Below are positions 2,145 through 56,237 of a stretch of DNA of 64,000 bases, in pieces (positions within the stretch are counted from its first letter, which is position 1; every line of letters starts with the position of its first letter). The stretch is from the NCBI GenBank assembly GCA_045118155.1, contig JBGUXS010000078.1, forward strand, positions 443-64,442. Direction: 5' to 3'. Made by a program: the position numbers and the translations under genes. Source of the stretch: Alphaproteobacteria bacterium (GTDB taxonomy: Bacteria > Pseudomonadota > Alphaproteobacteria > CAAHEQ01 > UBA3637). The notes under the pieces were generated by a model that was given only the letters and a program-made list of their open reading frames with translations, did no database searches and was not told the DNA's origin.

Positions 2145-2179
2145 TTTTACTAGAAAAAAGCTTTTATTACGTGTATAAT
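2145..2179 (+). promoter_or_regulatory. putative promoter for the 2199-6524 operon; -10 TATAAT at 2174-2179 preceded by TG
   Basis: gtgTATAAT lies 20 nt upstream of ATG 2199. No good -35 was found. Confidence 0.35.
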
Positions 2180-2198: not shown

Positions 2199-3341
2199 AT
2201 GCAGAAAAAACGCACCTTTATTATTGGACTTATTTGGGGGCTAATCTTCTTTTGGTGGCTGCACAATTTTTTTTACTTGAATTGGTATTTTCGGTTTTAC
2301 AGTCCCAAAGCTTGGGTTTATTTACTTCATGAATTCAAGTACGGTTGGCGGGTACGGGCCGTTTCCGATTGGATCTTTATTTTTACCCTTATTTTCGCAT
2401 TACCTCTGTTTTTCTGGGGGTGGTATCTATGCTTAAAAATCAAATGGTTGGCTCTTTTTAAATGGATAAAAAAACAATTTTTAAAACTTACCAACAAAAA
2501 ATCAACTGTTGTAAAAAAACAAATGAAGTTAGCCGCTAAAAAAAGTGTGCAAAAAGAACGCCCCCCTGCCCTTGCAACCCCCAAAGTAACTAGTCCCGAA
2601 AAGAAAATGCAAAAAATGCCATCTTCTGCCATCAAAAAAGAAGAAATCGATTTAGATTTTTCTGCTAAAGAAGAATTTTTGAAAGAAGAAAACATTCAAA
2701 CGGCACCTCCTGCCAAAGAACATCGGGCCCCGGATCCACCAAAAGGGGGACCTTCTTTCCTATTTGAAGATGATGATATCCCGCAACAAAACAATGATGT
2801 TCGGGCCGACACACTGTTGTCTGAAATAAAAATGCCAGAACGAGAACGAACACAAGAAAATATCCCAGATATTATTCACGCGCATGGCTTTAAGCCCATC
2901 ACGGCCATTGTGCATCCAGATATTTCTTTTGCGGCCGTTTCTTCAGATACCCTTTTGGTTGCTTTTGTGGATGAAGAACCAGGAGATTGGCTAGCCGATG
3001 AAGAAGATTTTGAAGGGGAAGACCCCTTGTGGTTTTCAGAAAGTTTTCATCGGGTTTCCCCAGTTTTTAAACTATTAAAAGTTGCTAAAAAAATCAGGGC
3101 TCAGTTAGAAAATCAAGGACTTTCTCATAAAGTAATTCCTTACTTAATTGAAAAAATGGGAAATATTATTAACGTAGAAGATATGCAAGAAACGTGGAAA
3201 GAACTGGGGGTCATTGTCTGCCGAACAGATGTTGGGGGGGATGAAACATTACCCACAGTAGAAGCTTCTTTCCCGCAAGCAAAAGATGTTGCAGAAGCTG
3301 CTGATTTAGATATAATAAAAGAAATTTTAAAAAAGTTATAG
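2199..3341 (+). CDS. hypothetical membrane-anchored protein: two N-terminal TM helices, a Lys-rich linker and a strongly acidic C-terminal domain; first gene of the coupling-protein operon
   Basis: TM helices FIIGLIWGLIFFWWL and WIFIFTLIFALPLFFWGWYL. KK-rich stretch from about residue 90 to 150. D/E-rich C-terminal half. Stop lies 9 nt before the next start, with the RBS AGGGGGAAAAG inside its 3' end. Confidence 0.6.
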   Translation: MQKKRTFIIGLIWGLIFFWWLHNFFYLNWYFRFYSPKAWVYLLHEFKYGWRVRAVSDWIFIFTLIFALPLFFWGWYLCLKIKWLALFKWIKKQFLKLTNKKSTVVKKQMKLAAKKSVQKERPPALATPKVTSPEKKMQKMPSSAIKKEEIDLDFSAKEEFLKEENIQTAPPAKEHRAPDPPKGGPSFLFEDDDIPQQNNDVRADTLLSEIKMPERERTQENIPDIIHAHGFKPITAIVHPDISFAAVSSDTLLVAFVDEEPGDWLADEEDFEGEDPLWFSESFHRVSPVFKLLKVAKKIRAQLENQGLSHKVIPYLIEKMGNIINVEDMQETWKELGVIVCRTDVGGDETLPTVEASFPQAKDVAEAADLDIIKEILKKL

Positions 3342-3350
3342 GGGGAAAAG

Positions 3351-5522
3351 TTGGGCGCCTCTGACGCGATGTACACCGAACGTAAAAAATATACGTACTA
3401 TGTGGCAGCTATCGTAGTACTGGCTCTTTTTGTATCTTGGATAATGCTGTTAATTACAATTCCTTTACAAGCTTTTATCCGTCAAGGGTTAGATATTGAA
3501 GCTTGGAATTACAGTGTTTCCTTTTGGACACATGCTTGGCATCCAAAAGTCATTTTTCAAGTCCTCAATAGTTGGTTTGATTCCCTAAAAACGTTAAAAA
3601 ATCCCCATTGGACTTTATATTTACCCTTTTTATCCTTTTTTATTGGCTTTATCGTTTTAGTGATAGGGCTAAAAAAGAATCCCTTTGAATACACACCAAA
3701 TATTTTTGGGAATGGACGTTTAGCCACTTATGCTGATGTCAAAAAAATGAAATTATTTACTGGGTTCTGCATCGTTTTGGGACGTTTTAAAGGCAAGTTA
3801 TTAAAAATGCCAGAAACCTTAGCGGCCTTAGTTGTTGCGCCACCGGGGACTGGTAAAACCGCTGGGGTGGTGATTCCCACCATTTTTGAATCCCCAGGAT
3901 TGAGTATTATTGTAAACGACCCTAAACCAGAATTATGTTATACCACAACCGGATATCGGGCACAACAAGGGCCTGTGTTCGTTATTAACTGGGGGGCCGA
4001 TGATGAACCAGAAAAAGGGATTTTCTTCCCTAGTTGGAATCCACTTTCTGCTTCATGCTTACCAGCACCAGGTCCCGCCAGAGATATGTACATAGACTCT
4101 ATGGTGGCTATTTTGGTAGAAGTTAATGAAAAAGATCCTCACTGGGGGAAAACTGGGCGAAATGCTATGTCTGGTTTTTTGAACTTTATCGCCAGTAAAT
4201 GTGAACGGGCACTTGCTAACGATTACTTTACTTCACGTTTAATGGACGATTTATTTGATGATGAAGACGCGGCCGTTTTAGAAACATACTATGCGGATAT
4301 GAACGATCCTGATACAGGGTCTGCTTTACAGGCATTAAAAAATGGGTCTATGACACGGGAATCTTACGTCCCTATCGGTACATGGGCGGGGCTACCTTCT
4401 GTTTGGCAAGGAAAAGAACCTTGTATTGCTATGATTTTGGACTGGCTGACGGAAATGCAAATGAAAATCAATGCCGATATTAAACGCCGTATGGATGAAG
4501 GGGATCAAATGGCGGCCATGGCAGACCCCATGCGGGATCTATTGGAAAGTGCCATCAGTGAAGCAGCCCGCTATGGCTATGCCAGACGTTCTGTCACAGA
4601 ACTCAATCAATTATCCGCCACACCGGATAAGGAACGGGGGTCTATTTTATCCACGGCCCTTTCTGGGATCAGTATTTTTAAAAACTCGGCAGTGCGTTCT
4701 AGAACTAAGTTCAGTGACATTACTTTCCGTGATTTACGTGGGATGCGTGATCCTATTACAGGGGAACAAAAACCTATTTCGGTTTATCTATCCGTTAACC
4801 AGGTAGATGCCCAAGCCTTAAATGTCATTACTGGGATTTTTGTTGAATTGATGAGCAGTTTCTTAATCGCGAACCCCCCAAATTTTGTTGGGGCAGGCGG
4901 GAAAAAGGCGGGACCATTTCCTGTTTTATTTGTGCTTGACGAGTTTCCACAAATGCCAAAATTGGATGCTGTGAAAAACGGGCCTGCCGTAGGGCGGGGA
5001 CAGAAAGTTTCTTATTTGCTCATTGGGCAGGATCTTGGACAGATTTCTGGTAAATACGGGAAAGATGATTTGGAAACAATCATTACAACAACAGCCGCTA
5101 AAGTCATTCTTTCTCAAAACAACGAACAAACCGCTGAACGTTTTACAAAAATGATTGGGACTAAAACGATTCAAGTAACAAGTTCTAGCCGAACTGAAGG
5201 GATTTCCAACCAAAATAACCCCTTTGCGGCAAACGTAAGCCGTTCCTACCAAAGCTCAAACGTGGTCCAAGTATCTGATATGATGAGCTTAGATATGCTT
5301 AAACAATACGTTTTATTCCAAGGATATCTAAACCATCCTATCTTAGCGGATGCCCCTCGTTATTACTTAGATAAAGTCATGCAAAAGAAAGCGGCCATTC
5401 CCCCTTCCCCATTTGTTCCGTATTGGATTGTAGCGCAACGGGAAGATACCGATTTAGAAACATTAAAAGCTTTGATGCAAGAGGAATTAGCAGATTTGGA
5501 TATTATCATAGAGGATGAATAA
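3351..5522 (+). CDS. virD4: type IV secretion coupling protein (VirD4/TraG/DotL family ATPase)
   Basis: Two N-terminal TM helices. Walker A VVAPPGTGKTAGVVIPT. Walker B VLFVLDEFPQMPKLD. NDPKPEL motif. Acidic C-terminal tail. TTG start at 3351; alternative ATG at 3369. Confidence 0.8.
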   Translation: MGASDAMYTERKKYTYYVAAIVVLALFVSWIMLLITIPLQAFIRQGLDIEAWNYSVSFWTHAWHPKVIFQVLNSWFDSLKTLKNPHWTLYLPFLSFFIGFIVLVIGLKKNPFEYTPNIFGNGRLATYADVKKMKLFTGFCIVLGRFKGKLLKMPETLAALVVAPPGTGKTAGVVIPTIFESPGLSIIVNDPKPELCYTTTGYRAQQGPVFVINWGADDEPEKGIFFPSWNPLSASCLPAPGPARDMYIDSMVAILVEVNEKDPHWGKTGRNAMSGFLNFIASKCERALANDYFTSRLMDDLFDDEDAAVLETYYADMNDPDTGSALQALKNGSMTRESYVPIGTWAGLPSVWQGKEPCIAMILDWLTEMQMKINADIKRRMDEGDQMAAMADPMRDLLESAISEAARYGYARRSVTELNQLSATPDKERGSILSTALSGISIFKNSAVRSRTKFSDITFRDLRGMRDPITGEQKPISVYLSVNQVDAQALNVITGIFVELMSSFLIANPPNFVGAGGKKAGPFPVLFVLDEFPQMPKLDAVKNGPAVGRGQKVSYLLIGQDLGQISGKYGKDDLETIITTTAAKVILSQNNEQTAERFTKMIGTKTIQVTSSSRTEGISNQNNPFAANVSRSYQSSNVVQVSDMMSLDMLKQYVLFQGYLNHPILADAPRYYLDKVMQKKAAIPPSPFVPYWIVAQREDTDLETLKALMQEELADLDIIIEDE

Positions 5523-6064
5523 TGACGGAAGATTTTAAGTTTGAAGATGGTCTAGGACAGGATTATTGGATTCGTGAATTTCATAAAATTCCCTTTCCAG
5601 GAATGGAATTGTTTGAAGTAACTTTTTTTAGACGTATAGAAGGGGCCTATGTGGATAAACATCAGCGCTTTAGAGAAATGGCCGTTGATTTTCTAAAAGA
5701 TTTAGGGAAAGAGGAAGAAGAACTTTATGCTTTTGAATTTTCTGAGGCCGAAGTCGCTTTGATTAAAAAAGGTCGTCTACCAGAAAATTATACTGTCCAT
5801 TTAAAATATCCTTTAGAATACGGTTGTGCATTGATCCCAGAACAATTTGTTTTGATGCCTATTGCCCCTTATTATCGGGATATTAATACTTATATCTTCA
5901 GACAACTTATAACCGATGAAGGAATTAAAAAGCCCCATCACCTTTATGTTCCCACACCAACAGGGCGTATTTATAAACCTTATTCTGGGGATGCAAGTGG
6001 CAGCGGTGGGAAAAGTAATACTTCCCAAATGGCGGCTATGTTTAACCAGGGGCGGGGGCGTTAA
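5522..6064 (+). CDS. hypothetical 180-aa protein with a Gly/Ser-rich basic C-terminus (...SGDASGSGGKSNTSQMAAMFNQGRGR), translationally coupled to virD4 (TAATG)
   Basis: Stop/start overlap with the T4CP gene. No recognisable motifs. Net-positive C-terminal tail. Confidence 0.55.
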   Translation: MTEDFKFEDGLGQDYWIREFHKIPFPGMELFEVTFFRRIEGAYVDKHQRFREMAVDFLKDLGKEEEELYAFEFSEAEVALIKKGRLPENYTVHLKYPLEYGCALIPEQFVLMPIAPYYRDINTYIFRQLITDEGIKKPHHLYVPTPTGRIYKPYSGDASGSGGKSNTSQMAAMFNQGRGR

Positions 6065-6065
6065 T

Positions 6066-6524
6066 ATGAAATTAATACATGTTGTTTTAAAAGCTATTTA
6101 TAAAGATGCCGCTGTTGTTTTTAATCCTGTGGCTTTGACTGATGTTCAAAAGGCCTCTTTTGAAATTGTAAAAAATAAAGGGATTAAAATTCCTAATGAT
6201 TATGCTGCCTTTTTAACAGAAGTTGATGGATTATCCTGGAATGGATTGTATCTTTTTTCCTTAAATGAAAAGGAACGTCAAGATGGCGCTTTTGTGCACC
6301 CTGGCATTCTACAAACATACCATAAGGGCTTAAAAAATCCGATTTTTAAAAACAGGCTTTTATTAGGATACGGCCCTGAAGAAATCATTACATATCATGC
6401 GGGAAAAAAAGAATATCAAATCCTAAGTCAATATGATTACAGAATCCTAGTACGGCTTCCCCGCTTCTTTGATGTACTGTATCACTATACCCATGCTTTA
6501 TTTGAGGATGCCCCTAAGGACTAG
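6066..6524 (+). CDS. SUKH/Smi1-Knr4-like protein (immunity-protein fold), 152 aa
   Basis: IPNDYAAFLTEVDGLSWNGLYLFSL ... LLLGYGPEEIITYH resembles the SMI1/KNR4 (SUKH-1) signature. ATG at 6066 sits 1 nt after the previous stop. The track ORF 5916-6524 is an over-extension into the previous gene. Confidence 0.5.
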   Translation: MKLIHVVLKAIYKDAAVVFNPVALTDVQKASFEIVKNKGIKIPNDYAAFLTEVDGLSWNGLYLFSLNEKERQDGAFVHPGILQTYHKGLKNPIFKNRLLLGYGPEEIITYHAGKKEYQILSQYDYRILVRLPRFFDVLYHYTHALFEDAPKD

Positions 6525-7698: not shown

Positions 7699-9510
7699 TT
7701 AGTCCCGTGTTACTTCGGGAAGGGTAAAATTATTTTCATCAAAAACACAGTATGTTTCAACCCGGGCGCTTAACGTATTGTCCCCCAAAGTTCCCCCTGT
7801 AAAATTCGTGGAACCCGCCCCCGTAACATAGCCAACTTCTATCCCCCATACTCTGGCAATATCCGCTTCGGTTTCTGCCTTTGCTTTATGAACATTATTA
7901 ACAGCCACAGCCACCGTATAGCGCGACACATTTGCATTTGTGACATTTGTGGTAGATCCATTTGTTACACCTTCAAAACTGTTCAAAACGTCCTTTCCGG
8001 TTGTTCGGATCGGGGTAACCACCAAAGCGGCCTTATATCCGGCCGGGCATGCTGGCGTTGTCACATTTGCCCGCAAGCAATTGTTCGTATATCCACTACA
8101 GTTCCCTAAATTAGCTTCTGTCGTTAATTCGGTAATAGATTTTGAAACATAATTCGGCAAGATATCACTTAATCTCGCCCCACCACGAGAAGCCAACTTA
8201 ACATCATTCATCACAGACGTATAAGCTGGATCTACCTGATAATGATCATACGTTTCTGATTCATTAGCAGCTTGAGCATCCACAAATTCAACGGATGAAT
8301 CAATACCTTTTGCAGACACGACTGCATTTTCTACTAACTGACCATCTGCATCATAAGCATTCAGCGTAACTTTCCCCTTGGAAGATCCATCTGTGGCTTC
8401 TTCAGCTTCGGCCTTTAAGACATCACGTCCGGCACTATCTCTGGTAATAATCTGCCCATTAGCATTGACAATAACCCGACGTTTGCCCGTGGCATCATAA
8501 ACGGTCACTGCCCGCTTGTCATTATCCACAGGATCAGTGGAAATAACGGCCGTTGAAACAAAGGCTTGAATTGTTTCCCCATCGTTCACGGGATCATCCA
8601 TAGAAACCGCTTGACGTCCTACATGCAAATCATTGCGGACATAAACATTCCCCGGGGTTCCTGCCAATCCTTCATCCGTTCCGTTTTCAAGATGTTCTGC
8701 CCCTACCCAAAATAAGGGGGCACATTCTTCCCCTGCATCCAAAATTGTATAACCGGTTGCATCTTTTCTAAAGCAATTCGTATTTCCTTCGCCAATAGAA
8801 AAATAGCTCCAAGCATGCAAGTTTTTGAAAGCGGCTTCATCTTCTAAAGAAGAAAAGAGTGCCCCTTCATCAAATCCAGTAAATGCAACATAAGACGGGC
8901 TTACCACAGGTTCCATCATCAAAGATGCCCCTTCTAATTCCCAAGTTCCCATGGTGCCTACAAAATTATCCCCTTGGACGATACCCCCATCAGCCCCAAT
9001 CAAGGCAGCGATACTAGCCGCCCGCTTTAAATTCCATGTTCCTTGCGGCAGTGCCGATGCTTTAGGTAAGATAACTCCATAAAAAGAGGTCCCAACTTTT
9101 GCCCCTTCCGTATTTTCTAAATTTTTCCCAAAAAGGTAAAAATTGTATTTTTCAGCCGTACTTGATGTCAAAACATCCCCTGTGTACGTGTTATAGGTCA
9201 CTGGTAAGTATGTTGCCACATTTTTCCACAACGTGTTATATGAACAATTGGAAGTTTCTGTTCCAGACAATGCACAAACCCCACCACCGGCTGTGGCTAA
9301 TTCTTCAAGTTGCCTATGTTGCGTTTGGATAAAAGAGGAAAAAGCTTCCTTCATCGTACGCATTTCGGTCGCTACATTAACATTGGCTAGTTCCCGATTA
9401 CGTTGTGCCACTTGCCTATACAAAACAGGTCCCAACACCGCCAAGATCCCTAAGACGGCAATAGCTTCTATCATAATAGACCCAGATTGGGTTTTTACAG
9501 CTTTTTTCAT
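7699..9510 (-). CDS. large (603 aa) prepilin-type (class III signal peptide) protein, TadG/pseudopilin/minor-pilin-like putative adhesin
   Basis: N-terminus MKKAVKTQSG|SIMIEAIAVLGILAVLG: basic leader ending in Gly, Glu at +5, then a hydrophobic helix. The remainder is Thr/Asn/Gly/Asp-rich and predicted extracellular. Confidence 0.65.
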   Translation of the reverse strand: MKKAVKTQSGSIMIEAIAVLGILAVLGPVLYRQVAQRNRELANVNVATEMRTMKEAFSSFIQTQHRQLEELATAGGGVCALSGTETSNCSYNTLWKNVATYLPVTYNTYTGDVLTSSTAEKYNFYLFGKNLENTEGAKVGTSFYGVILPKASALPQGTWNLKRAASIAALIGADGGIVQGDNFVGTMGTWELEGASLMMEPVVSPSYVAFTGFDEGALFSSLEDEAAFKNLHAWSYFSIGEGNTNCFRKDATGYTILDAGEECAPLFWVGAEHLENGTDEGLAGTPGNVYVRNDLHVGRQAVSMDDPVNDGETIQAFVSTAVISTDPVDNDKRAVTVYDATGKRRVIVNANGQIITRDSAGRDVLKAEAEEATDGSSKGKVTLNAYDADGQLVENAVVSAKGIDSSVEFVDAQAANESETYDHYQVDPAYTSVMNDVKLASRGGARLSDILPNYVSKSITELTTEANLGNCSGYTNNCLRANVTTPACPAGYKAALVVTPIRTTGKDVLNSFEGVTNGSTTNVTNANVSRYTVAVAVNNVHKAKAETEADIARVWGIEVGYVTGAGSTNFTGGTLGDNTLSARVETYCVFDENNFTLPEVTRD

Positions 9511-27459: not shown

Positions 27460-27758
27460 TGCCACCATTTTTAAGCCCTGATGAAGATTCGTGTCTTTTA
27501 CACATTTTATTGGTTCCTAATGCTAAAGAAAATAAGATTTATGGTCTTTTTAATGAACGATTAAAACTTTATATTTCTGCCCCAGCTGTGGACGGAAAAG
27601 CGAATAAAGCTTTAATTAAATACCTGGCTGATCTCTTTAACCTAAAAAAAAATCAGATTTCCTTGATACAAGGGGAAAGATCCCATCAAAAAACAGTACG
27701 ACTAGATGCCCCTATTGACCACATCTGTACTTGTTTAAGTCAACATATTTCCGTGTAA
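27456..27758 (+). CDS. DUF167 (YggU) family protein
   Basis: LKLYISAPAVDGKANKALIKYLADLF... Confidence 0.7.
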   Translation: MMPPFLSPDEDSCLLHILLVPNAKENKIYGLFNERLKLYISAPAVDGKANKALIKYLADLFNLKKNQISLIQGERSHQKTVRLDAPIDHICTCLSQHISV

Positions 27759-28805
27759 AATACGTGTAATCTCGCTTCCTTGCATCAAAGAAAAACCTAA
27801 GGCTTGGGCTTGTTGTATTTCTTGAGGGGTTTGAATATCAAACAAGATAATTTTTTCTTTAGGATAATTCAAAGTAGCAGCCCATTTCATCTGTTGACTA
27901 TTAATCTTTAGGTAATGCATCGGGATTTTATCCCATGCTAAATAGGATATTTCCTCCGGAATGCGTAATAAAAAGAGGGATTGTTGATAACAAGGTATTT
28001 TTTGAATACTTTGCCATAAATCCCGTTCCCAAAGAAAATCTGATAAACTTATTTCATAAGAAATACCTTGATGTTGATACAATTGGTGCATTTCCTGATA
28101 AACGGGTTGGGTTAAAAGATAAGGACTCGCAGAAAAAACTCCTCCTTGTGTTTTGGGCAATTCCTTTTTTAAAATTTTTGTATACAGCGCATTCTTAAAG
28201 GCCCTTTTCAAATATGTATCAGAATCCAATATCACCTTTGGAAATAGAACTTGACGGACATCAATATCTTTACAAAAAACACTGGTAAATACAGGAACCA
28301 TCTCGGTTAAATCATGAACCTGACAAATGCATTGATGCCGTGTTAAATGTGAAACATCCGCTGTTTTTAGCTCTGATAAAATATGTGTGAGAGTTGGGGT
28401 ATCCAAGGGCAATGAAGGAATTTTTTGAAGCACTTTTAAATCAGAAAAATCTGCTGTTGGGGTTAGCTCTTGATGATTAATTTTATGGATCAAAGCATTA
28501 AAATCTGTGATTAAATTAAAAAATGATAATTTATGTTCTTGGAAAAAGGATTTTTCCAGCCCCTTTAATTTCAAGGAAAGCAACATCATATCCTGTAATT
28601 TATTATGGGCAAAAAAGGCAACGCTATCCCCTTCGCTTAAAAAGAACAATTTCGTTTGATATGTCTGTTCAAAAGAACTCAAAAAATGCAAAAGAACCTT
28701 TTTTTTCTCATCTTCTTTAGGTAAAGGAATATAAAGAGCATGCCCTTTAAATGTTCTTTTTTCAAGATATTTGAGATAGTCAAAAACACTATTATACCGC
28801 ATCAT
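27735..28805 (-). CDS. hypothetical protein with a degenerate EAL-like C-terminal domain
   Basis: C-terminal ...YLKINSQQM...KIILFDIQTPQEIQQAQALGFSLMQG mirrors the EAL end (KID...EGVE...GCD..QG) but lacks the catalytic residues. Confidence 0.5.
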   Translation of the reverse strand: MMRYNSVFDYLKYLEKRTFKGHALYIPLPKEDEKKKVLLHFLSSFEQTYQTKLFFLSEGDSVAFFAHNKLQDMMLLSLKLKGLEKSFFQEHKLSFFNLITDFNALIHKINHQELTPTADFSDLKVLQKIPSLPLDTPTLTHILSELKTADVSHLTRHQCICQVHDLTEMVPVFTSVFCKDIDVRQVLFPKVILDSDTYLKRAFKNALYTKILKKELPKTQGGVFSASPYLLTQPVYQEMHQLYQHQGISYEISLSDFLWERDLWQSIQKIPCYQQSLFLLRIPEEISYLAWDKIPMHYLKINSQQMKWAATLNYPKEKIILFDIQTPQEIQQAQALGFSLMQGSEITRILHGNMLT

Positions 28806-29874
28806 ATCCCCTTAAATGTTGCACACACACGCATTGTGATGCTTGATGCGGGATCGCCCCCATTTGCATACACGTTTGTAAAGCACAATCTCCCCCATAT
28901 GGACACGTTTTTTTTCGAGAAGCCGCATGAATCAAATCAATAAAATCACCTTGAAAAAAGGTATATGGGGAAGACAGAATTTGAGTTAATTTTTCTTGCG
29001 TATCCACTCCTGTTACAAAAACAGGAACATGATTGATTGATTGTGTTAAACAAACTTCTACGGGAAGAAGTAAAAAATCAGCTTCTAATAAATCAAAACG
29101 ATAAAAGGCCGTTTCTGCAGTAATGCCCCCAATACCTAACCGATACTGTTTTCCTGGACGAGTTAGGGCTTCCTTATACAGATTTTTATTTAACAAGACT
29201 TCTGCAATATCTAAAATAATCCAAACTGGGTCATTATTTTCAATCCAAGCACTTTCCAACGTTCCTTGCACCATCAAAGGCAATGTCGTTTGTTTAAACA
29301 GCTCTTTATTTGGGTGTTGCAATAATTGTTTCTGTATTTTCTGAACTAACCACATTGGAAGCTGATCCATATTGTTTTTTAAGGTCCATGTATATCCCCA
29401 CAGAGAGTTGCTCCCCTTTTGATAAATTACCCGCCTAAACCAACTATTTTTTTCGGGAATATCTTTTAAAAAAGCCTCATAATCAACCTCTTGATTCGTT
29501 TGCTTTTTAGCTATCTGAATCAGGGACAAAACCCCCATCAAATCCTGTGGTAAATGGAACAAGCGTACATTTTCTTCTTTTTTTCCTGTTTGAATTTGAA
29601 AAAATGTTTGAATTTGGCGCATCACATCCACAACTTGATGTTCATCAAGATCAACCCCTATTAATAAACGATCTTGTTGTTCAAATGTAAAAAGCCGACA
29701 ATATTCATACGCTAATAACGGTTCTAATAAATGTTCTATGACGTGCATCAACCTTTCGGCCCCTGGCAGACCTAATAATTGACTTGTCCCTATCCAAAGG
29801 ACAACCGACGGTGTTTCTAAAGCAGCGACACGCTTTATTGTTTCTAAGGCCAGTTGTTCTTGTGTCTCATACAT
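28792..29874 (-). CDS. hypothetical protein with a degenerate EAL-like domain and a Cys-rich C-terminal tail
   Basis: YRLGIGGITAETAFYRFDLLEADFLLLPVEV...VPVFVTGVDTQEKL...FQGDF parallels the EAL DDFGTG...KIDRSF...EGVET...QGY layout. Tail TCPYGGDCALQTCMQMG...QCVCVQH. Confidence 0.5.
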   Translation of the reverse strand: MYETQEQLALETIKRVAALETPSVVLWIGTSQLLGLPGAERLMHVIEHLLEPLLAYEYCRLFTFEQQDRLLIGVDLDEHQVVDVMRQIQTFFQIQTGKKEENVRLFHLPQDLMGVLSLIQIAKKQTNQEVDYEAFLKDIPEKNSWFRRVIYQKGSNSLWGYTWTLKNNMDQLPMWLVQKIQKQLLQHPNKELFKQTTLPLMVQGTLESAWIENNDPVWIILDIAEVLLNKNLYKEALTRPGKQYRLGIGGITAETAFYRFDLLEADFLLLPVEVCLTQSINHVPVFVTGVDTQEKLTQILSSPYTFFQGDFIDLIHAASRKKTCPYGGDCALQTCMQMGAIPHQASQCVCVQHLRGYDAV

Positions 29875-53441: not shown

Positions 53442-53517
53442 GTTTTTTTCATAAAAGCATTTTCTGCCTTTACTTTTCATCTCTTTTTGATTATGCTTGT
53501 TTCTACAAGGGGGTAAT

Positions 53518-53805
53518 ATGCGGGAACCTATTTTAAAAGCGGTCAGTATGCCGGCGCGTATTTTATGGGCGCCGTCGGTTCCGGCGTTGTTAAACATGGT
53601 TTGTCAATTACCTTTCATGTTGTTCTATGCGGGACAAGGGGGCAACCCTTTGCTATTCATGGGAACTATCATCGGGGTTCATGCCTTAATTGCTCTTTAT
53701 GCCGCGAAAGAACCTCATTTATCTAATATGTTCAAAGCCCAAGGTCCTTTCTTTAAGAAAAGTTCACAAATGTATACCTCATCAGGAAGAAAATACGCCC
53801 CATGA
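53518..53805 (+). CDS. virB3: type IV secretion system protein VirB3 (TrbD-like)
   Basis: Two TM helices. ILKAVSMPARILWAPSVPALLNMV...LLFMGTIIGVHALIALYAAKEPHL matches the VirB3 family. RBS AAGGGGG. ATGA overlap with virB4. Confidence 0.75.
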   Translation: MREPILKAVSMPARILWAPSVPALLNMVCQLPFMLFYAGQGGNPLLFMGTIIGVHALIALYAAKEPHLSNMFKAQGPFFKKSSQMYTSSGRKYAP

Positions 53806-56237
53806 ATCAAACAGATGTTTTCGCCCTTATTTTACAAAATGCTTCCTCTACGGGGTTACTTATTGCCTTGTTAGGAGTATTAGCACTTGTTTTTGTCATG
53901 GTTGTATTTGTGACCTCCTTAGGAAATATGTTACTTCCCAAACCAAAAGAAACCCTTGTTTCTGATTTTCTTCCTTTTTCAAGGCTAGACCCAGATGGTG
54001 CCACCATTTACATGCGTAATGGTACTTTGGCTCGTGTTTTTGAATTAACAGGAACGGATACCACTTTAGCAAGTGATATTGAACGTAAAGCCTTAATGGA
54101 AAAACGGCAACAATGGATTGATTCACTAAGTGAATTAGAAATTATTTGCAGGGTTATTACGATTCGTGAAAAAATTCCTTTAGCCGAAGAAACACTACAT
54201 CCAGATAATCCTTTGCTCAATAAAGTGTCAGAACTTTGGTTGAACAGTTTACACCGTATTTTCAGAAACAAACATTACCTAATTCTTTCCGTTAATGATC
54301 GTAAGGATGCCATTAATGATTTAATTCAGGCAACAAATGCGACTCTTTCTATTTTAGATGTTTATCATCCTATTCTTATTTCTGAAAAAACCCCAGATAA
54401 ACATCAAGACAAAAGCCCCTTTTGGGTTTTTTCACAACTTGTCAGCCCCGTATCAAACCCCAAACCCATTGTAGGCTTTGAAAAAGGGGAAGAACTTAAT
54501 TCCTTTTTAACGTCTGACTATATCCACTTCACAAAAGATGAAGGGATTATCCGTTTCTTTTCTGGGGATAGGGAAAAATTAGCCATTTGTATCGGTATTC
54601 GTAAGCCTGGGGATTTCATGGATGAACAAATGGTTGCCCGTATTTTAGGAATTGATTGTGAAGTTGTTATTACACACAATATCCATGCTATTCCAAAAGC
54701 AAAAGGAAACCTGTTAATGATTCAACAACGCCGTATGGCTTACTTAACAAGTTTTTCTGAAAGTGTACGTTCCCAATATAATACCGCCATGCAATTAATG
54801 GATCCTTCTGATATTAATTCACAAACCCTTAATGAATATTCTATGTCTATTATGGTTTATGGGGAATCTAAGGAAGAACTTGTTTTTGGACAACAGGAAG
54901 TTGAAAAAATATGCCGACTTTACGGGGTGACCCCTGTGCGAGAAGGTTGGATTACTCAAGCTGTTTTCTTTTCTCAAATTCCCTCTTATGAAGTATATCC
55001 ACGTACATACTTGTATTTATCGCGGGTAGTGGCGTGTTCCATTTGCATGGATAAAACAACTGAAGGCCGGCAAAAATCTGATTGGGGGCCTGTGCCTATT
55101 TCTTACTTCCGGACTATTACGGGGACCCCTTACGCTTTCCAATTTCATGTAACAGAAGAACCCTATGCTGTGGCACATACAGCCCTTATTGGTCCAACGG
55201 GACAAGGGAAAACAACCTTATTTTCATTTTTAGCAGGCCAATCTTCCCGTATTCCAGATTTACGGACTTATTTCTTTGACCGTAACAATGGGGCCAAAGT
55301 TTTTGCTTTATTACAAGGGGCTCCTTATGTGCGGTTTGATGGGGGGGACAATGCTGTTGCCTTAAATCCTTTCTTTATGCCAGATTCCCCTGAAAACAGG
55401 GCATTTTTACGATCTTGGTTACGCTCTATTACTGGCTGTACAGATGCTTTTTCCGAAGAAGAAATTGCCCGAGCCGTTACAACAGCTTATGACTATTTAA
55501 AACCAGAAGAACGTCTTTTGAAGAACTTGTATAAAAGCTCTTTTTCCTTAAACGGAGATATGCGCCGTGAACTAAAACGTTGGGTCAGTGATGATCAATA
55601 TGGTCGGATCTTTAATGCCGAAGAAGATAAATTAGATATTGATAACCGCTATACTGGTTTTGATTTTACGCATATTTTCCAAGATGGGACGTTGGCTCCT
55701 GCTGTCATCAGTTATATCATGTACCGCATTCATGAATTAGCTAGTTTAAAAGGGACCCCCTCGTTAGTGATGATTGATGAAACGGCCCCTATGTTAGAAC
55801 ATCCTATGTTCCGAGACAATTTCATTGTAGGCCTTCGGGAAGGACGAAAGAAACGACAAGCATTCTTATGTGCTTTCCAGCAACCTCGCTTTTTAGATGA
55901 AAACGGTTTAGGGGATGTGATTCGTGGCCAATGTCAAACCATTATTTTCTTTAGAAATTTACAGGCAACCCCCGCGGATTATGAATCTTGGAATTTAACC
56001 CCAAGTGAACTAAACTTTATTCTAGGAAAAGAATTTATTGATCATAAATACGCCATCCTTGTCAAACGGCCCGCTGTTAATGAATCTGTTATCTTAGATA
56101 TTAATTTGGGGGGATTAGGTCCCTACTTAAAAATTTATTCTTCTGGGAATAAAAATGTGGCCTTAGTTGAACGTCTTAGTCATGAACTAAAATATGCTAA
56201 AGATATCCTACAACAATATCTACAGTTATCTGATTAG
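53802..56237 (+). CDS. virB4: type IV secretion system ATPase VirB4 (TrbE-like), 811 aa
   Basis: Walker A LIGPTGQGKTT. Walker B SLVMIDETAPML. N-terminal TM helix. CagE/TrbE/VirB4 architecture. Confidence 0.88.
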   Translation: MNQTDVFALILQNASSTGLLIALLGVLALVFVMVVFVTSLGNMLLPKPKETLVSDFLPFSRLDPDGATIYMRNGTLARVFELTGTDTTLASDIERKALMEKRQQWIDSLSELEIICRVITIREKIPLAEETLHPDNPLLNKVSELWLNSLHRIFRNKHYLILSVNDRKDAINDLIQATNATLSILDVYHPILISEKTPDKHQDKSPFWVFSQLVSPVSNPKPIVGFEKGEELNSFLTSDYIHFTKDEGIIRFFSGDREKLAICIGIRKPGDFMDEQMVARILGIDCEVVITHNIHAIPKAKGNLLMIQQRRMAYLTSFSESVRSQYNTAMQLMDPSDINSQTLNEYSMSIMVYGESKEELVFGQQEVEKICRLYGVTPVREGWITQAVFFSQIPSYEVYPRTYLYLSRVVACSICMDKTTEGRQKSDWGPVPISYFRTITGTPYAFQFHVTEEPYAVAHTALIGPTGQGKTTLFSFLAGQSSRIPDLRTYFFDRNNGAKVFALLQGAPYVRFDGGDNAVALNPFFMPDSPENRAFLRSWLRSITGCTDAFSEEEIARAVTTAYDYLKPEERLLKNLYKSSFSLNGDMRRELKRWVSDDQYGRIFNAEEDKLDIDNRYTGFDFTHIFQDGTLAPAVISYIMYRIHELASLKGTPSLVMIDETAPMLEHPMFRDNFIVGLREGRKKRQAFLCAFQQPRFLDENGLGDVIRGQCQTIIFFRNLQATPADYESWNLTPSELNFILGKEFIDHKYAILVKRPAVNESVILDINLGGLGPYLKIYSSGNKNVALVERLSHELKYAKDILQQYLQLSD

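What the first reader, a model, noticed from the sequence alone, without database searches (positions are those of the whole stretch)
2199..3341. T4CP partner protein with an unusual TM / Lys-rich / acidic tripartite layout
Two TM helices (residues about 8-75), a roughly 60-residue lysine-rich linker (KWIKKQFLKLTNKKSTVVKKQMKLAAKKSVQKE), then a strongly acidic globular C-terminal half (EDDDIPQQNNDV..., DEEPGDWLADEEDFEGEDPLWF). Its stop is 9 nt from the T4CP start, so the two should be co-translated near-stoichiometrically. Known T4CP adaptors (DotM, IcmS/W, TraM) do not have this composition.
Basis: seen in the sequence. Interest (0 to 1): 0.6.

Follow-up and report, generated by a model that had tools for sequence, protein, structure and literature searches.

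The report
Membrane partner of a secretion ATPase
An unannotated 380-residue inner-membrane protein of uncultured gut Alphaproteobacteria is almost always encoded directly in front of the coupling ATPase of a type IV secretion system, and carries a nuclease-like domain with a strictly conserved acidic motif that also turns up beside other ATPases/GTPases, so it is probably a new kind of partner subunit for such motors.

Summary
ORF 2199-3341 (+) encodes 380 aa: two hydrophobic helices, a Lys-rich disordered tether and an acidic globular C-terminal domain. It ends 9 nt before a VirD4-type coupling protein (T4CP, 3351-5522).

The pairing is not chance. The partner lies just upstream of the T4CP in about 80 genome loci found through the partner, and in 73 of 74 metagenome loci found through the T4CP. 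The window also holds virB4, so the T4CP belongs to a scattered chromosomal T4SS.

Best reading (about 0.5): a membrane-tethered adaptor or regulator of the T4CP, analogous to DotM but unrelated in fold and opposite in charge. No physical interaction has been shown, and three distant relatives lack a neighbouring T4CP. I rate it a new variant of a known kind.

The parts
2151..2179 (+). Promoter-like site TAGAAA-17-TATAAT, 20 nt upstream of the partner's ATG. Candidate operon promoter.
   Evidence: Consensus scan, 10 of 12 matches. This is a pattern match only. The region as a whole has fewer such sites than its shuffles.
2199..3341 (+). Partner gene, 380 aa: membrane domain, basic tether, acidic nuclease-fold domain.
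   Evidence: ORF. 501 homologues. AF2 model, mean pLDDT 80.5. Conserved position upstream of the T4CP.
2199..2495 (+). Residues 1-99: Trp-rich membrane domain. TM1 is about residues 6-27, a short helix spans 36-47, TM2 is about 52-82, and a basic juxtamembrane helix spans 83-99.
   Evidence: Hydropathy. AF2 helices with pLDDT 88-97. Invariant W29, F31, W39, W83. Mean 43% identity to homologues. The domain also occurs alone as a 150-200 aa paralogue upstream of the partner in other lineages.
2496..2813 (+). Residues 100-205: disordered tether. It is Lys-rich near the membrane and mixed or acidic further out, and its length varies between species.
   Evidence: pLDDT <50. Mean 19% identity to homologues. 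Composition.
2538..2564 (+). Short conserved motif in the tether, KKSVQKERP (family pattern KKS.K..RP).
   Evidence: R121 nearly invariant and P122 invariant among 42 homologues, inside an otherwise unalignable linker.
2814..3338 (+). Residues 206-380: acidic alpha/beta domain with a restriction-endonuclease-like (NERD-like) fold.
2982..3062 (+). Hallmark block GDWLADEEDFEGEDPLWFSESFHRVSP (residues 262-288), inserted after the third core strand.
   Evidence: Invariant D263, W264, L265, A266, E268, E269, P276, W278, F279, S280, E281, H284, R285, S287, P288 in 42 homologues. Most of the block (WLADE, F, PLWFS, SP) is also conserved in unrelated domain architectures; H284/R285 are not.
3159..3239 (+). 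Second conserved blocks GNIINVEDMQETW (residues 321-333) and VCRTDVGG (residues 340-347).
   Evidence: Invariant G321, I324, N325, M329, W333. Nearly invariant V340, R342, G346.
3351..5522 (+). VirD4-type type IV coupling protein, 723 aa. It has two N-terminal TM helices, Walker A at 3840-3860, Walker B at 4926-4943, and an acidic C-terminal tail (net -9).
   Evidence: Pfam PF02534, PF12696, PF10412. Below the cut-off of every named NCBIfam T4CP subfamily. 56-71% identical across the clade. Nearest plasmid relatives are 31% identical and sit in virB8-B11-D4 clusters. Motifs.
5522..6064 (+). p180: HNH-like (beta-beta-alpha-Me) domain protein. Candidate T4SS cargo or toxin, with a degenerate motif in this genome.
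6066..6524 (+). p152: SUKH/YrhA-like small protein. Candidate immunity protein or chaperone for p180.
   Evidence: NCBIfam YrhA family E 1.6e-12, 47.6 bits against a cut-off of 55. Weak SUKH_6 and SMI1_KNR4 matches, E 0.007-0.015. Always found together with p180.
53497..53805 (+). Possible virB3-like small membrane protein gene, overlapping the start of virB4.
   Evidence: Assigned by position and hydrophobicity only. No Pfam hit and no plasmid tblastn hit.
53802..56237 (+). VirB4 ATPase, 811 aa, of the same secretion system. It lies about 48 kb from the T4CP, between gatCAB and acpS/rpoZ.
   Evidence: PF03135 E 5e-12, 46.6 bits against a cut-off of 21. Walker A GPTGQGKT. Neighbouring genes.

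Best explanation
The 380-aa protein is a dedicated inner-membrane partner subunit of a divergent VirD4-type coupling ATPase. That ATPase belongs to a chromosomal type IV secretion system whose genes are scattered around the genome, found in uncultured gut and rumen Alphaproteobacteria.

Shown:
- The gene pair partner-T4CP is the invariant core of the locus across the clade.
- The same window encodes VirB4.
- In a distant branch the operon sits beside three VirB6 paralogues.

Inferred topology: the N-terminus faces the cytoplasm, a Trp-rich two-span hairpin sits in the membrane, and a basic, roughly 100-residue flexible tether holds an acidic globular domain in the cytoplasm.

Inferred mechanism: the membrane hairpin packs against the T4CP's own two-helix membrane anchor. 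The tethered C-terminal domain docks on the cytoplasmic ATPase ring or on incoming substrates, and so recruits cargo or gates the motor. This is the job DotM does for DotL in Legionella, done here with an unrelated fold and the opposite charge.

The C-domain has a restriction-endonuclease-like fold that has lost the catalytic lysine. Its functional hallmark is an inserted acidic-aromatic hairpin (GDWLADEE..PLWFSE..HR.SP). Because the same hallmark domain recurs fused to, or encoded beside, other P-loop NTPases, I take it to be an NTPase-binding or regulating module rather than a nuclease.

A plausible cargo is the downstream HNH-like protein. It has a disordered, basic, conserved C-terminal tail, and it is paired with a SUKH-like protein.
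For: Gene order. The order partner-T4CP is conserved in about 80 genome loci at 27-59% partner identity, while the flanking genes differ. In 80 loci found through the T4CP alone, 73 of 74 with enough upstream DNA carry the partner just upstream on the same strand. The median spacing between the two reading frames is 16 nt. p180 and p152 are present in only 36 of 55 of those loci, so the pair is the core.

T4SS membership. VirB4 is in the window. Three TrbL/VirB6 paralogues lie next to the operon in loci L072-L086. The nearest plasmid T4CPs sit in virB8-B11-D4 clusters.

Layout. The model and composition support the tripartite layout, and the charges are conserved family-wide.

Nuclease inactivity. 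The Lys position 260 is E in 32, Q in 8, and never K. The 'PD' column is D in 31 of 42 and is Ser in the window protein. In other architectures even D258 is lost while the hallmark is kept.

Hallmark domain with other NTPases. It occurs in TPR-domain-Roc-COR-TIR proteins. It occurs in tandem-domain proteins whose genes overlap or abut a 982-988 aa FtsH-like AAA+ gene in Akkermansia-like genomes. It also occurs beside a 781-aa AAA gene.

Membrane domain. It exists as a separate paralogue upstream of the partner in 45 of 52 loci.

DotM comparison. DotM has the same general layout but is all-alpha and basic (PMC5802825).
Against: No physical interaction was tested, and no complex model could be run.

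Three distant TM-bearing relatives with a relaxed hallmark are not next to a T4CP or any obvious NTPase. Their neighbours look like accB and glgA, or are polA and an ion-channel gene. The wider family is therefore not obligatorily T4CP-linked.

The NTPase associations outside this clade come from few independent lineages: one FtsH-like, one AAA, one Roc-COR fusion.

D258 is invariant and E260 is common. A BamHI-like D/E/E active site (recalled from memory) is therefore not excluded in most members.

The correlation between the basic charge of the tether and the acidic T4CP tail (rho -0.5) is confounded by phylogeny and by a regex failure in some loci.
Confidence: 0.5

Rival explanations
1. The partner is an active membrane-tethered nuclease or nickase. 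It would process DNA at the coupling protein, for example as a restriction-endonuclease-fold relaxase (the MOB_C type, such as pAD1 TraX; recalled from memory), or it would degrade DNA handled by the T4CP.
For: The fold is restriction-endonuclease-like and some members weakly match NERD. D258 is invariant, E260 is present in 32 of 42 and E220 in 33 of 42. The invariant D263, E268, E269, E281 and H284 could bind metal. The neighbouring gene encodes an HNH-like protein.
Against: The catalytic Lys is absent in all 42 members. The 'PD' Asp is Ser in the window protein and N, S, E or G in 11 of 42. The canonical positions are not conserved in other architectures that keep the hallmark. No oriT, relaxase accessory gene or mobile-element context is present: the locus is chromosomal and sits among housekeeping genes. 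The domain also pairs with a protease-type AAA+ (FtsH-like), which argues against a DNA-specific role.
Confidence: 0.12
2. The protein is a general membrane-tethered factor of Alphaproteobacteria that is not specific to secretion. It might, for example, be a regulator of some other membrane process or NTPase. On this reading its place upstream of the T4CP is a clade-specific operon arrangement without direct functional coupling.
For: Distant relatives with the same layout stand alone next to accB-like, glgA-like, polA and ion-channel genes. The C-domain is a mobile module found in other contexts. The gene has no relative on any of 72,556 plasmids, and the nearest plasmid T4CPs lack it.
Against: Adjacency is kept in 73 of 74 T4CP-ascertained loci and across partner divergence down to about 27% identity, while all flanking genes change. 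The spacing is usually under 25 nt. Paralogues of its membrane domain also cluster at the same spot. Conservation of this kind is the classical signature of a functional pair.
Confidence: 0.15
3. The four-gene cassette works on its own rather than as part of the T4SS. It would be a membrane DNA translocase of the FtsK/HerA superfamily with nuclease-fold partners, comparable to HerA-nuclease defence systems or McrBC. It might act against incoming DNA.
For: The cassette is separate from the virB genes. It holds two nuclease-fold proteins and a SUKH-like protein. There is a weak PADLOC hit of the T4CP to mad8, E 2e-6. A HerA-DUF4297 assembly chain appears among the non-significant Foldseek hits.
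Against: virB4 is in the same window. The operon abuts three VirB6 genes in another branch. The ATPase has the full T4CP domain set and membrane anchor. It is core and syntenic rather than in a variable defence island. Both nuclease-fold proteins are degenerate in this genome. No PADLOC hit was found for the other three proteins.
Confidence: 0.07
4. The protein is a diverged orthologue of DotM/IcmP (TrbA of IncI plasmids).
For: It has the same length (380 aa), an N-terminal membrane domain and a cytoplasmic domain, and its gene lies immediately upstream of the T4CP gene.
Confidence: 0.02

Closest known systems
[quoted passage not shown]
   Same: Inner-membrane protein of about 380 aa. N-terminal TM helices are followed by a cytoplasmic domain. 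The gene lies directly upstream of the coupling ATPase gene. The presumed role is as a T4CP-bound platform for substrate recruitment.
   Different: No sequence similarity. The DotM domain is all-alpha with basic patches that bind Glu-rich signals. Here the domain is alpha/beta, endonuclease-like and strongly acidic, and is joined by a roughly 100-residue disordered basic tether. The system here is a VirB/VirD4-type T4SS, not Dot/Icm.
NERD domain (PF08378) and the PD-(D/E)xK restriction-endonuclease fold
   Different: The window protein has no Pfam hit. The catalytic Lys is replaced (E or Q) in all members and the first Asp is Ser here. A 27-residue invariant acidic-aromatic insertion defines the family instead.
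Nuclease-fold partners of ring P-loop NTPases (McrC with McrB, DUF4297 or NurA with HerA; recalled from memory)
   Same: A restriction-endonuclease-fold protein is encoded next to, and presumed to dock on, an oligomeric P-loop NTPase. T4CPs belong to the FtsK/HerA superfamily.
   Different: Those partners are soluble, catalytically active nucleases in defence or repair. This one is membrane-anchored and probably inactive, and it sits in a secretion system.
Rickettsiales vir homologue (rvh) type IV secretion system (from memory: Gillespie et al.)
   Same: A chromosomal P-type T4SS whose genes are scattered in small islands among housekeeping genes, with multiple tandem VirB6 paralogues carrying extensions. 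The host is an alphaproteobacterium.
   Different: In rvh, and in the nearest plasmid relatives seen here, virD4 follows virB8-B9-B10-B11. Here virD4 has its own operon headed by the partner gene. No such partner is described for rvh.
ZipA-type layout (from memory)
   Same: A membrane anchor, a charged segment, a long flexible linker and a small alpha/beta globular domain that binds a partner protein.
   Different: No homology. There are two TM helices rather than one, and the context is different (FtsZ tethering in gammaproteobacteria).

Membership tests
DotM/IcmP-TrbA family | Detectable sequence homology to DotM or TrbA | tested here: not met
   phmmer of the protein and hmmsearch of the 42-sequence profile against all PDB chains (which include DotM structures) gave no DotM hit at E up to 10.
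DotM/IcmP-TrbA family | All-alpha cytoplasmic domain with basic patches that bind acidic signals | tested here: not met
DotM/IcmP-TrbA family | N-terminal TM domain and a gene adjacent to the T4CP gene | tested here: met
DotM/IcmP-TrbA family | Type IVB (Dot/Icm or IncI) system context | tested here: not met
   The T4CP matches VirD4/TraG models. VirB4 and VirB6/TrbL are present. No Dot/Icm gene was seen.
NERD (PF08378) / PD-(D/E)xK nucleases | Match to the Pfam NERD model above the gathering score | tested here: not met
   The window protein has no NERD hit at E <= 0.1. 11 of 42 relatives match weakly, best E 4e-4.
NERD (PF08378) / PD-(D/E)xK nucleases | Restriction-endonuclease alpha-beta-beta-beta-alpha-beta core fold | tested here: inconclusive
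NERD (PF08378) / PD-(D/E)xK nucleases | Catalytic D ... (D/E)xK residues | tested here: not met
   Column 243 is D in 31 of 42 and Ser in the window. D258 is invariant. Column 260 is E in 32, Q in 8, and never K. These positions are not conserved in other architectures of the domain.
Type IV coupling protein (the neighbouring gene 3351-5522) | T4CP nucleotide-binding domain, TraG-D_C region, Walker A and B motifs, N-terminal membrane anchor | tested here: met
   PF02534 1e-54, PF12696 8e-23, PF10412 3e-18. Motifs and two TM helices. It is below the cut-off for every named NCBIfam subfamily.
Component of a type IV secretion system | Other T4SS genes in the same genome | tested here: met
   VirB4 at 53802-56237 in the same window. 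Three VirB6/TrbL genes adjoin the operon in L072-L086. VirB8-B11 were not seen because they lie outside the DNA available.
Component of a type IV secretion system | Physical association with the T4CP, or a requirement for secretion | not testable with these tools
   Requires co-purification, two-hybrid or genetic experiments, or a multimer structure prediction.
HNH (beta-beta-alpha-Me) nucleases (neighbour p180) | H...N...H(H) motif on a beta-beta-alpha fold | tested here: inconclusive
SUKH / SMI1-KNR4 immunity-type proteins (neighbour p152) | Match to SUKH family models | tested here: inconclusive
   NCBIfam YrhA family 47.6 bits against a cut-off of 55. Pfam SUKH_6 and SMI1_KNR4 at E 0.007-0.015, below their cut-offs. 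A distant orthologue gave no hit.

The most novel reading that the evidence does not exclude
The 'WLADEE' domain would be a previously undescribed, widely distributed module that couples to oligomeric P-loop NTPases of quite different classes: a VirD4 coupling ATPase, an FtsH-like AAA+ protease, an AAA ATPase and a Roc-COR GTPase fused to TIR. It has a restriction-endonuclease-like fold, has lost catalysis, and carries an invariant acidic-aromatic hairpin. In the T4SS it would act as a charge-inverted functional counterpart of DotM, capturing the basic C-terminal signals typical of VirB/D4 substrates. That would be the first membrane-anchored substrate receptor known for a type IVA coupling protein.
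Probability: 0.2. Interest if true: 0.75.

Novelty: new variant of a known kind. Interest (0 to 1): 0.55.

Why it matters
How VirD4-type coupling proteins recognise and admit substrates is still poorly understood. To my knowledge the only structurally defined multi-subunit coupling complex is the Legionella DotL-DotM-DotN-IcmSW assembly.

A second, unrelated membrane partner that is strictly co-inherited with a type IVA coupling protein gives a concrete candidate for an equivalent complex in VirB/D4 systems. It also gives a testable hypothesis: an acidic receptor for basic C-terminal signals.

The host clade is made up of uncultured Alphaproteobacteria that recur in human-gut, ruminant and other animal-gut assemblies. 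They appear to keep a chromosomal T4SS as a core trait, in part with an HNH-like/SUKH-like pair that looks like a toxin and its immunity protein. That points to contact-dependent competition in the gut.

Independently, the hallmark domain is an unannotated family that recurs beside NTPases, including a TIR-containing ROCO protein. It is worth defining as a family in its own right.

Tried and rejected
- Single-sequence and profile searches of the partner against Pfam, NCBIfam, PADLOC, PHROGs and all PDB chains gave nothing usable. The weak ATP-synthase-b hits of the profile (E 0.03) cover the TM and charged-helix part only, and I dismissed them as compositional.
- A Foldseek search of the model against the PDB gave no significant hit. 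The AFDB libraries were unavailable.
- tblastn of the partner against 72,556 plasmids found no match.
- Literature searches for NERD plus type IV secretion and for RF32 plus type IV secretion found nothing relevant.
- A third homologue search with a profile of the C-domain, built from the non-T4CP architectures, returned only short gut-alphaproteobacterial fragments and no new architectures.
- The DotM-orthologue idea is rejected on fold, charge and system type.
- I tried a correlation between the acidic T4CP tail and the basic tether (rho -0.5). I do not rely on it: two clades drive it, and my tail-finding pattern failed in about 20 loci.
- The virB3 assignment of ORF 53497-53805 could not be confirmed.
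- Profile searches of p180 and p152 against the PDB were not significant. Pfam found no HNH model in 32 p180 relatives.
- A complex prediction of partner plus T4CP was not possible with the single-chain tool and its input restrictions.
Full report
**1. What is at the coordinates**

ORF 2199-3341 (+) starts with ATG and encodes 380 aa.

- Hydropathy gives two membrane segments, residues 6-27 and 52-82.
- An AlphaFold2 model built on 42 homologues has mean pLDDT 80.5. It shows helices 2-29, 36-47, 55-80 and 83-99, then a disordered stretch at about residues 100-200 (pLDDT <50), then a confident alpha/beta domain at 206-380 (pLDDT >90).
Residues 86-150 hold 18 Lys in 65 residues.
- Residues 206-380 are net -16 with pI 4.6.
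- The stop codon ends at 3341. A TTG start lies at 3351 behind a GGGGGA-type ribosome-binding site. An ATG at 3369 is the alternative start.
- The next ORF (3351-5522, 723 aa) is a coupling protein. It matches PF02534 (1e-54), PF12696 and PF10412. It has two N-terminal TM helices, Walker A PPGTGKT, Walker B LFVLDE and an acidic tail. It falls below the cut-off of every named NCBIfam T4CP subfamily.

It is also a family property: among 42 homologues the juxtamembrane segment is net +7 to +16 and the C-domain net -19 to -1.

**2. Surroundings**

The gene heads a four-gene unit: partner, T4CP, p180 (5522-6064) and p152 (6066-6524).

- A promoter-like site lies at 2151-2179, and no convincing terminator lies inside the unit.
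- The flanks are housekeeping genes: tuf, lgt, DUF2062 and yfiH on one side, and rbfA, rpsI, rplM, pnp and truB on the other.
- The rest of the window is also core genome: AcrAB-TolC-type efflux genes, RNase E/G, nrdD, lpxD-fabZ-lpxA, bamA, mreBCD and gatCAB (for gatC), and dnaE.
- The exception is a VirB4 gene at 53802-56237 (PF03135, 46.6 bits against a cut-off of 21). A possible virB3-like ORF precedes it, but this could not be confirmed.

The organism therefore has a chromosomal type IV secretion system whose genes are scattered among housekeeping genes. From memory, this resembles the Rickettsiales rvh arrangement.

**3. Is the pairing with the T4CP real?**

- The protein has 501 homologues at E <= 1e-3 in the clustered protein collection. 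Those that carry a source name are from 'Alphaproteobacteria bacterium' MAGs.
- A scan of one genome per species found 386 stretches that encode a relative. The 80 best-scoring are almost all gut and rumen alphaproteobacterial MAGs.
- In the fetched loci, tblastn and ORF clustering show the order partner-T4CP-p180-p152 wherever the contig is long enough. The genes outside the unit differ.
- The T4CP is 56-71% identical across these loci and the partner 27-59%. Within the partner, the TM domain is 43% identical on average, the linker 19%, the C-domain 41% and the hallmark block 76%.
- To remove ascertainment bias I fetched 80 metagenome loci through the T4CP alone and searched them with family profiles. 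Of the 74 loci with at least 450 nt upstream, 73 carry the partner directly upstream on the same strand.
- The single exception (L106) has only 623 nt upstream. It may belong to a lineage in which a roughly 1.1-kb spacer separates the two genes. I did not test that.
- In 45 of 52 loci with enough DNA, a second and weaker paralogue lies upstream of the partner. It is either the membrane domain alone (150-200 aa) or a full-length copy with a degenerate hallmark.
- p180 and p152 follow the T4CP in only 36 of 55 loci. Elsewhere housekeeping genes follow.

The invariant core is therefore partner plus T4CP.

- In one distant branch the operon is longer and abuts three tandem TrbL/VirB6 genes. One was tested against Pfam: PF04610, 27.1 bits against a cut-off of 25.9.
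- The partner has no relative on 72,556 plasmids.
- The nearest plasmid T4CPs are 31% identical. The one examined (Erythrobacter aureus) sits in a classical virB8-B9-B10-B11-D4 cluster without a partner.

**4. What the protein is made of**

No Pfam, NCBIfam, PADLOC, PHROG or PDB sequence match exists for the window protein or for the family profile.

Fold of the C-domain:
- Foldseek is not significant, although its more probable hits are of the same fold.
- 11 of the 42 homologues weakly match the NERD model, best E 4e-4. NCBI names one homologue 'NERD domain-containing'.

Canonical catalytic positions:
- E220 is present in 33 of 42.
- The 'PD' Asp column is D in 31 of 42 and is Ser in the window protein.
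- D258 is invariant.
- The Lys position is E in 32, Q in 8, and never K.

Conserved blocks:
- The absolutely conserved residues lie in an insertion after the third strand: G262-D-W-L-A-(D/E)-E-E-.-F-N-.-E-.-P-L-W-F-S-E-.-.-H-R-.-S-P288.
- Two later blocks are also conserved: GNIINAEDM...W and V.RTD.GG.
- The tether carries one conserved short motif, KKS.K..RP.

**5. The C-domain is a mobile module**

An exhaustive profile search of 1.84 billion representative proteins found 528 hits at E <= 1e-3. Among the top hits of at least 300 aa, 40 combine the TM domain with the strict hallmark, 46 have TM helices and a relaxed hallmark, and 11 have the hallmark without the TM domain.

The last group includes:
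- Proteins of 1513 and 1565 aa with the architecture TPR - this domain - Roc - COR-A - COR-B - TIR.
- Proteins of 1802 and 1895 aa without any Pfam domain.
- Soluble proteins with two tandem copies of the domain.

Gene neighbourhoods of the tandem-copy proteins:
- In Akkermansia-like genomes, the gene overlaps or lies within 7 nt of the end of a 982-988 aa FtsH-like AAA+/M41 gene.
- In another genome, a two-copy protein overlaps the end of a 781-aa AAA ATPase gene.

An alignment across these architectures keeps WLADEE, PLWFS, SP, IIN.(E/D)D and W. It does not keep D258 or the other nuclease positions. The hallmark, not the nuclease site, is therefore the conserved function, and the domain repeatedly keeps company with P-loop NTPases.

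Against over-reading this:
- The non-T4CP associations come from few lineages.
- Three distant TM-bearing relatives with a relaxed hallmark have no NTPase or T4CP neighbour. Their downstream genes look like accB (L095) and glgA (L096), and L097 has polA and an ion-channel gene on either side.

**6. The downstream pair**

p180:
- p180 relatives share a variable, often Pro/Gln-rich N-terminus and a core with the pattern PEN.T.H.K.P..YGG.....N.V.IQ..P.H..IH. They end in a conserved, disordered, basic tail, SGGK.K.DRSV.AGF...GR.
- The spacing H-15-N-10-H-4-H resembles the colicin DNase HNH motif (from memory).
- Pfam and PDB profile searches were not significant. The HNH assignment is therefore probable, not proven.
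- The window's own copy is the only one of 32 with N108Q, H118Y and H122N.

p152:
- It matches the YrhA family (47.6 bits, cut-off 55) and, weakly, SUKH models.

From established knowledge of polymorphic toxin systems (Zhang, Iyer and Aravind 2011, from memory), HNH nucleases paired with SUKH proteins are a typical toxin-immunity arrangement. The pair is therefore a plausible cargo cassette of the T4SS. Its patchy presence (36 of 55 loci) fits cargo rather than machinery.

**7. Mechanism proposed**

Shown: obligatory gene pairing with a VirD4-type T4CP, a T4SS in the same genome, the tripartite conserved layout, loss of the catalytic Lys, and a hallmark domain shared with other NTPase contexts.

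Inferred:
- The N-terminus (KKR) and the Lys-rich segment after TM2 place both ends in the cytoplasm, by the positive-inside rule.
- The Trp-rich hairpin packs against the T4CP membrane anchor. Stand-alone paralogues of this hairpin at the same locus suggest it is an independent membrane-interaction module.
- The flexible basic tether lets the acidic domain reach the cytoplasmic face of the ATPase ring or substrates. There it recruits cargo or gates the motor.
- VirB/D4 substrates typically carry basic C-terminal signals (Vergunst et al. 2005, from memory), and p180 has such a tail. An acidic receptor would be the mirror image of DotM, whose basic patches bind Glu-rich signals (PMC5802825).

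I put about 0.5 on the partner/adaptor-regulator reading. The rivals are an active nuclease (0.12), a general factor with incidental adjacency (0.15), an autonomous DNA-translocase cassette (0.07) and a DotM orthologue (0.02).

**8. Comparison and novelty**

- It works like DotM: a membrane subunit encoded upstream of the T4CP. It fails every defining feature of that family that could be tested, namely sequence, fold, charge and system type.
- It resembles NERD and PD-(D/E)xK proteins in fold only. It fails the Pfam threshold and the catalytic-residue tests.
- To my knowledge, no membrane partner of this kind has been described for a type IVA coupling protein. The literature searches I ran found none.
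- I rate it a new variant of a known kind: a T4CP accessory subunit built on an undescribed domain family. Interest is 0.55.
- The more novel reading, a general NTPase-coupled module and a charge-inverted DotM counterpart, has probability of about 0.2.

Noticed in passing
window 53497-56237 (+): A virB4 gene (811 aa, PF03135), preceded by a small hydrophobic ORF that could be virB3. The pair sits alone between gatCAB and acpS/rpoZ, about 48 kb from the T4CP operon. The T4SS genes are therefore scattered among housekeeping genes, as in the Rickettsiales rvh system.
   Followed up: partly
window 5522-6064 (+): p180 belongs to a family with a conserved HNH-like H-N-H-H motif. This genome's copy alone has Q, Y and N at three of the four positions, and a shortened C-terminal tail. 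Even its 64%-identical relative keeps the motif. The partner's 'PD' Asp is also Ser here, so both nuclease-fold proteins look inactive in this species.
   Followed up: yes
window 2199-5522 (+): The partner and the T4CP are in the same reading frame, separated only by TAG plus 9 nt. Read-through of the stop codon would fuse them. The spacing in other species is often not a multiple of three, so this is probably incidental.
   Followed up: partly
window 7699-9510 (-): A 603-aa protein with a type IV prepilin-like N-terminus (..QSG/SIMIEAIAVLGILAVLGPVLY) and no Pfam domain. If it is a pilin, it is unusually large.
   Followed up: no
window 27735-29874 (-): Two overlapping tandem ORFs of 356 and 360 aa with no Pfam match, between an amidase gene and a response-regulator/SpoIIE phosphatase gene.
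   Followed up: no
window 5916-6524 versus 6066-6524 (+): The mechanical ORF for p152 starts at 5916 and overlaps p180 by 149 nt. Public gene calls and the homologue alignment support the ATG at 6066 (152 aa).
   Followed up: yes
L087 5035-9551, L089 3046-7548, L091 323-4780, L090 3659-8412: Soluble proteins with two tandem copies of the hallmark domain (one copy degenerate) are encoded immediately after an unusually long FtsH-like AAA+/M41 gene in Akkermansia-like genomes. In another genome such a protein follows a 781-aa AAA gene and is itself followed by ASCH and ADP-ribosylglycohydrolase genes.
   Followed up: partly
P0212, P0219 (L093 6001-10542): The hallmark domain is embedded in 1500-aa proteins with the architecture TPR - domain - Roc - COR-A - COR-B - TIR. 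This architecture is typical of conflict or signalling NTPases.
   Followed up: partly
L072-L086, for example L079 4168-15058: In a distant branch the operon is extended: three tandem VirB6/TrbL genes (opposite strand), two unknown genes (c8, c29), a degenerate partner paralogue, the partner, a T4CP with a 70-85 residue hyper-acidic tail (net -28 to -47), p180 with a long Pro/Gln-rich N-terminus, and p152. The C-terminal extension of one VirB6 shares a motif (KNMA.R.YDN...G.NQKA.DQMTV..LK) with the c29 protein.
   Followed up: partly
L130-L178 and L005 9461-9940: Most human-gut lineages carry a 150-200 aa paralogue, consisting of the partner's membrane domain only, directly upstream of the full-length partner. 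The window's own lineage has none.
   Followed up: partly
L001 1-9700, L062: In two related genomes a prophage-like block (capsid, head-tail connector, S24 repressor) lies directly upstream of the DnaJ-domain / partner / T4CP locus.
   Followed up: no
many loci, for example L001 8755-9678, L007, L009: A divergently transcribed DnaJ-domain protein of about 180 aa (40 of 82 loci) and an ORF of about 92 aa (30 of 82 loci) often precede the partner gene. At the same position in L001 the public gene call is a 92-aa RHH_4 (ribbon-helix-helix) protein, though my clustering did not place that ORF in the same family. Neither gene is present upstream in the window.
   Followed up: no
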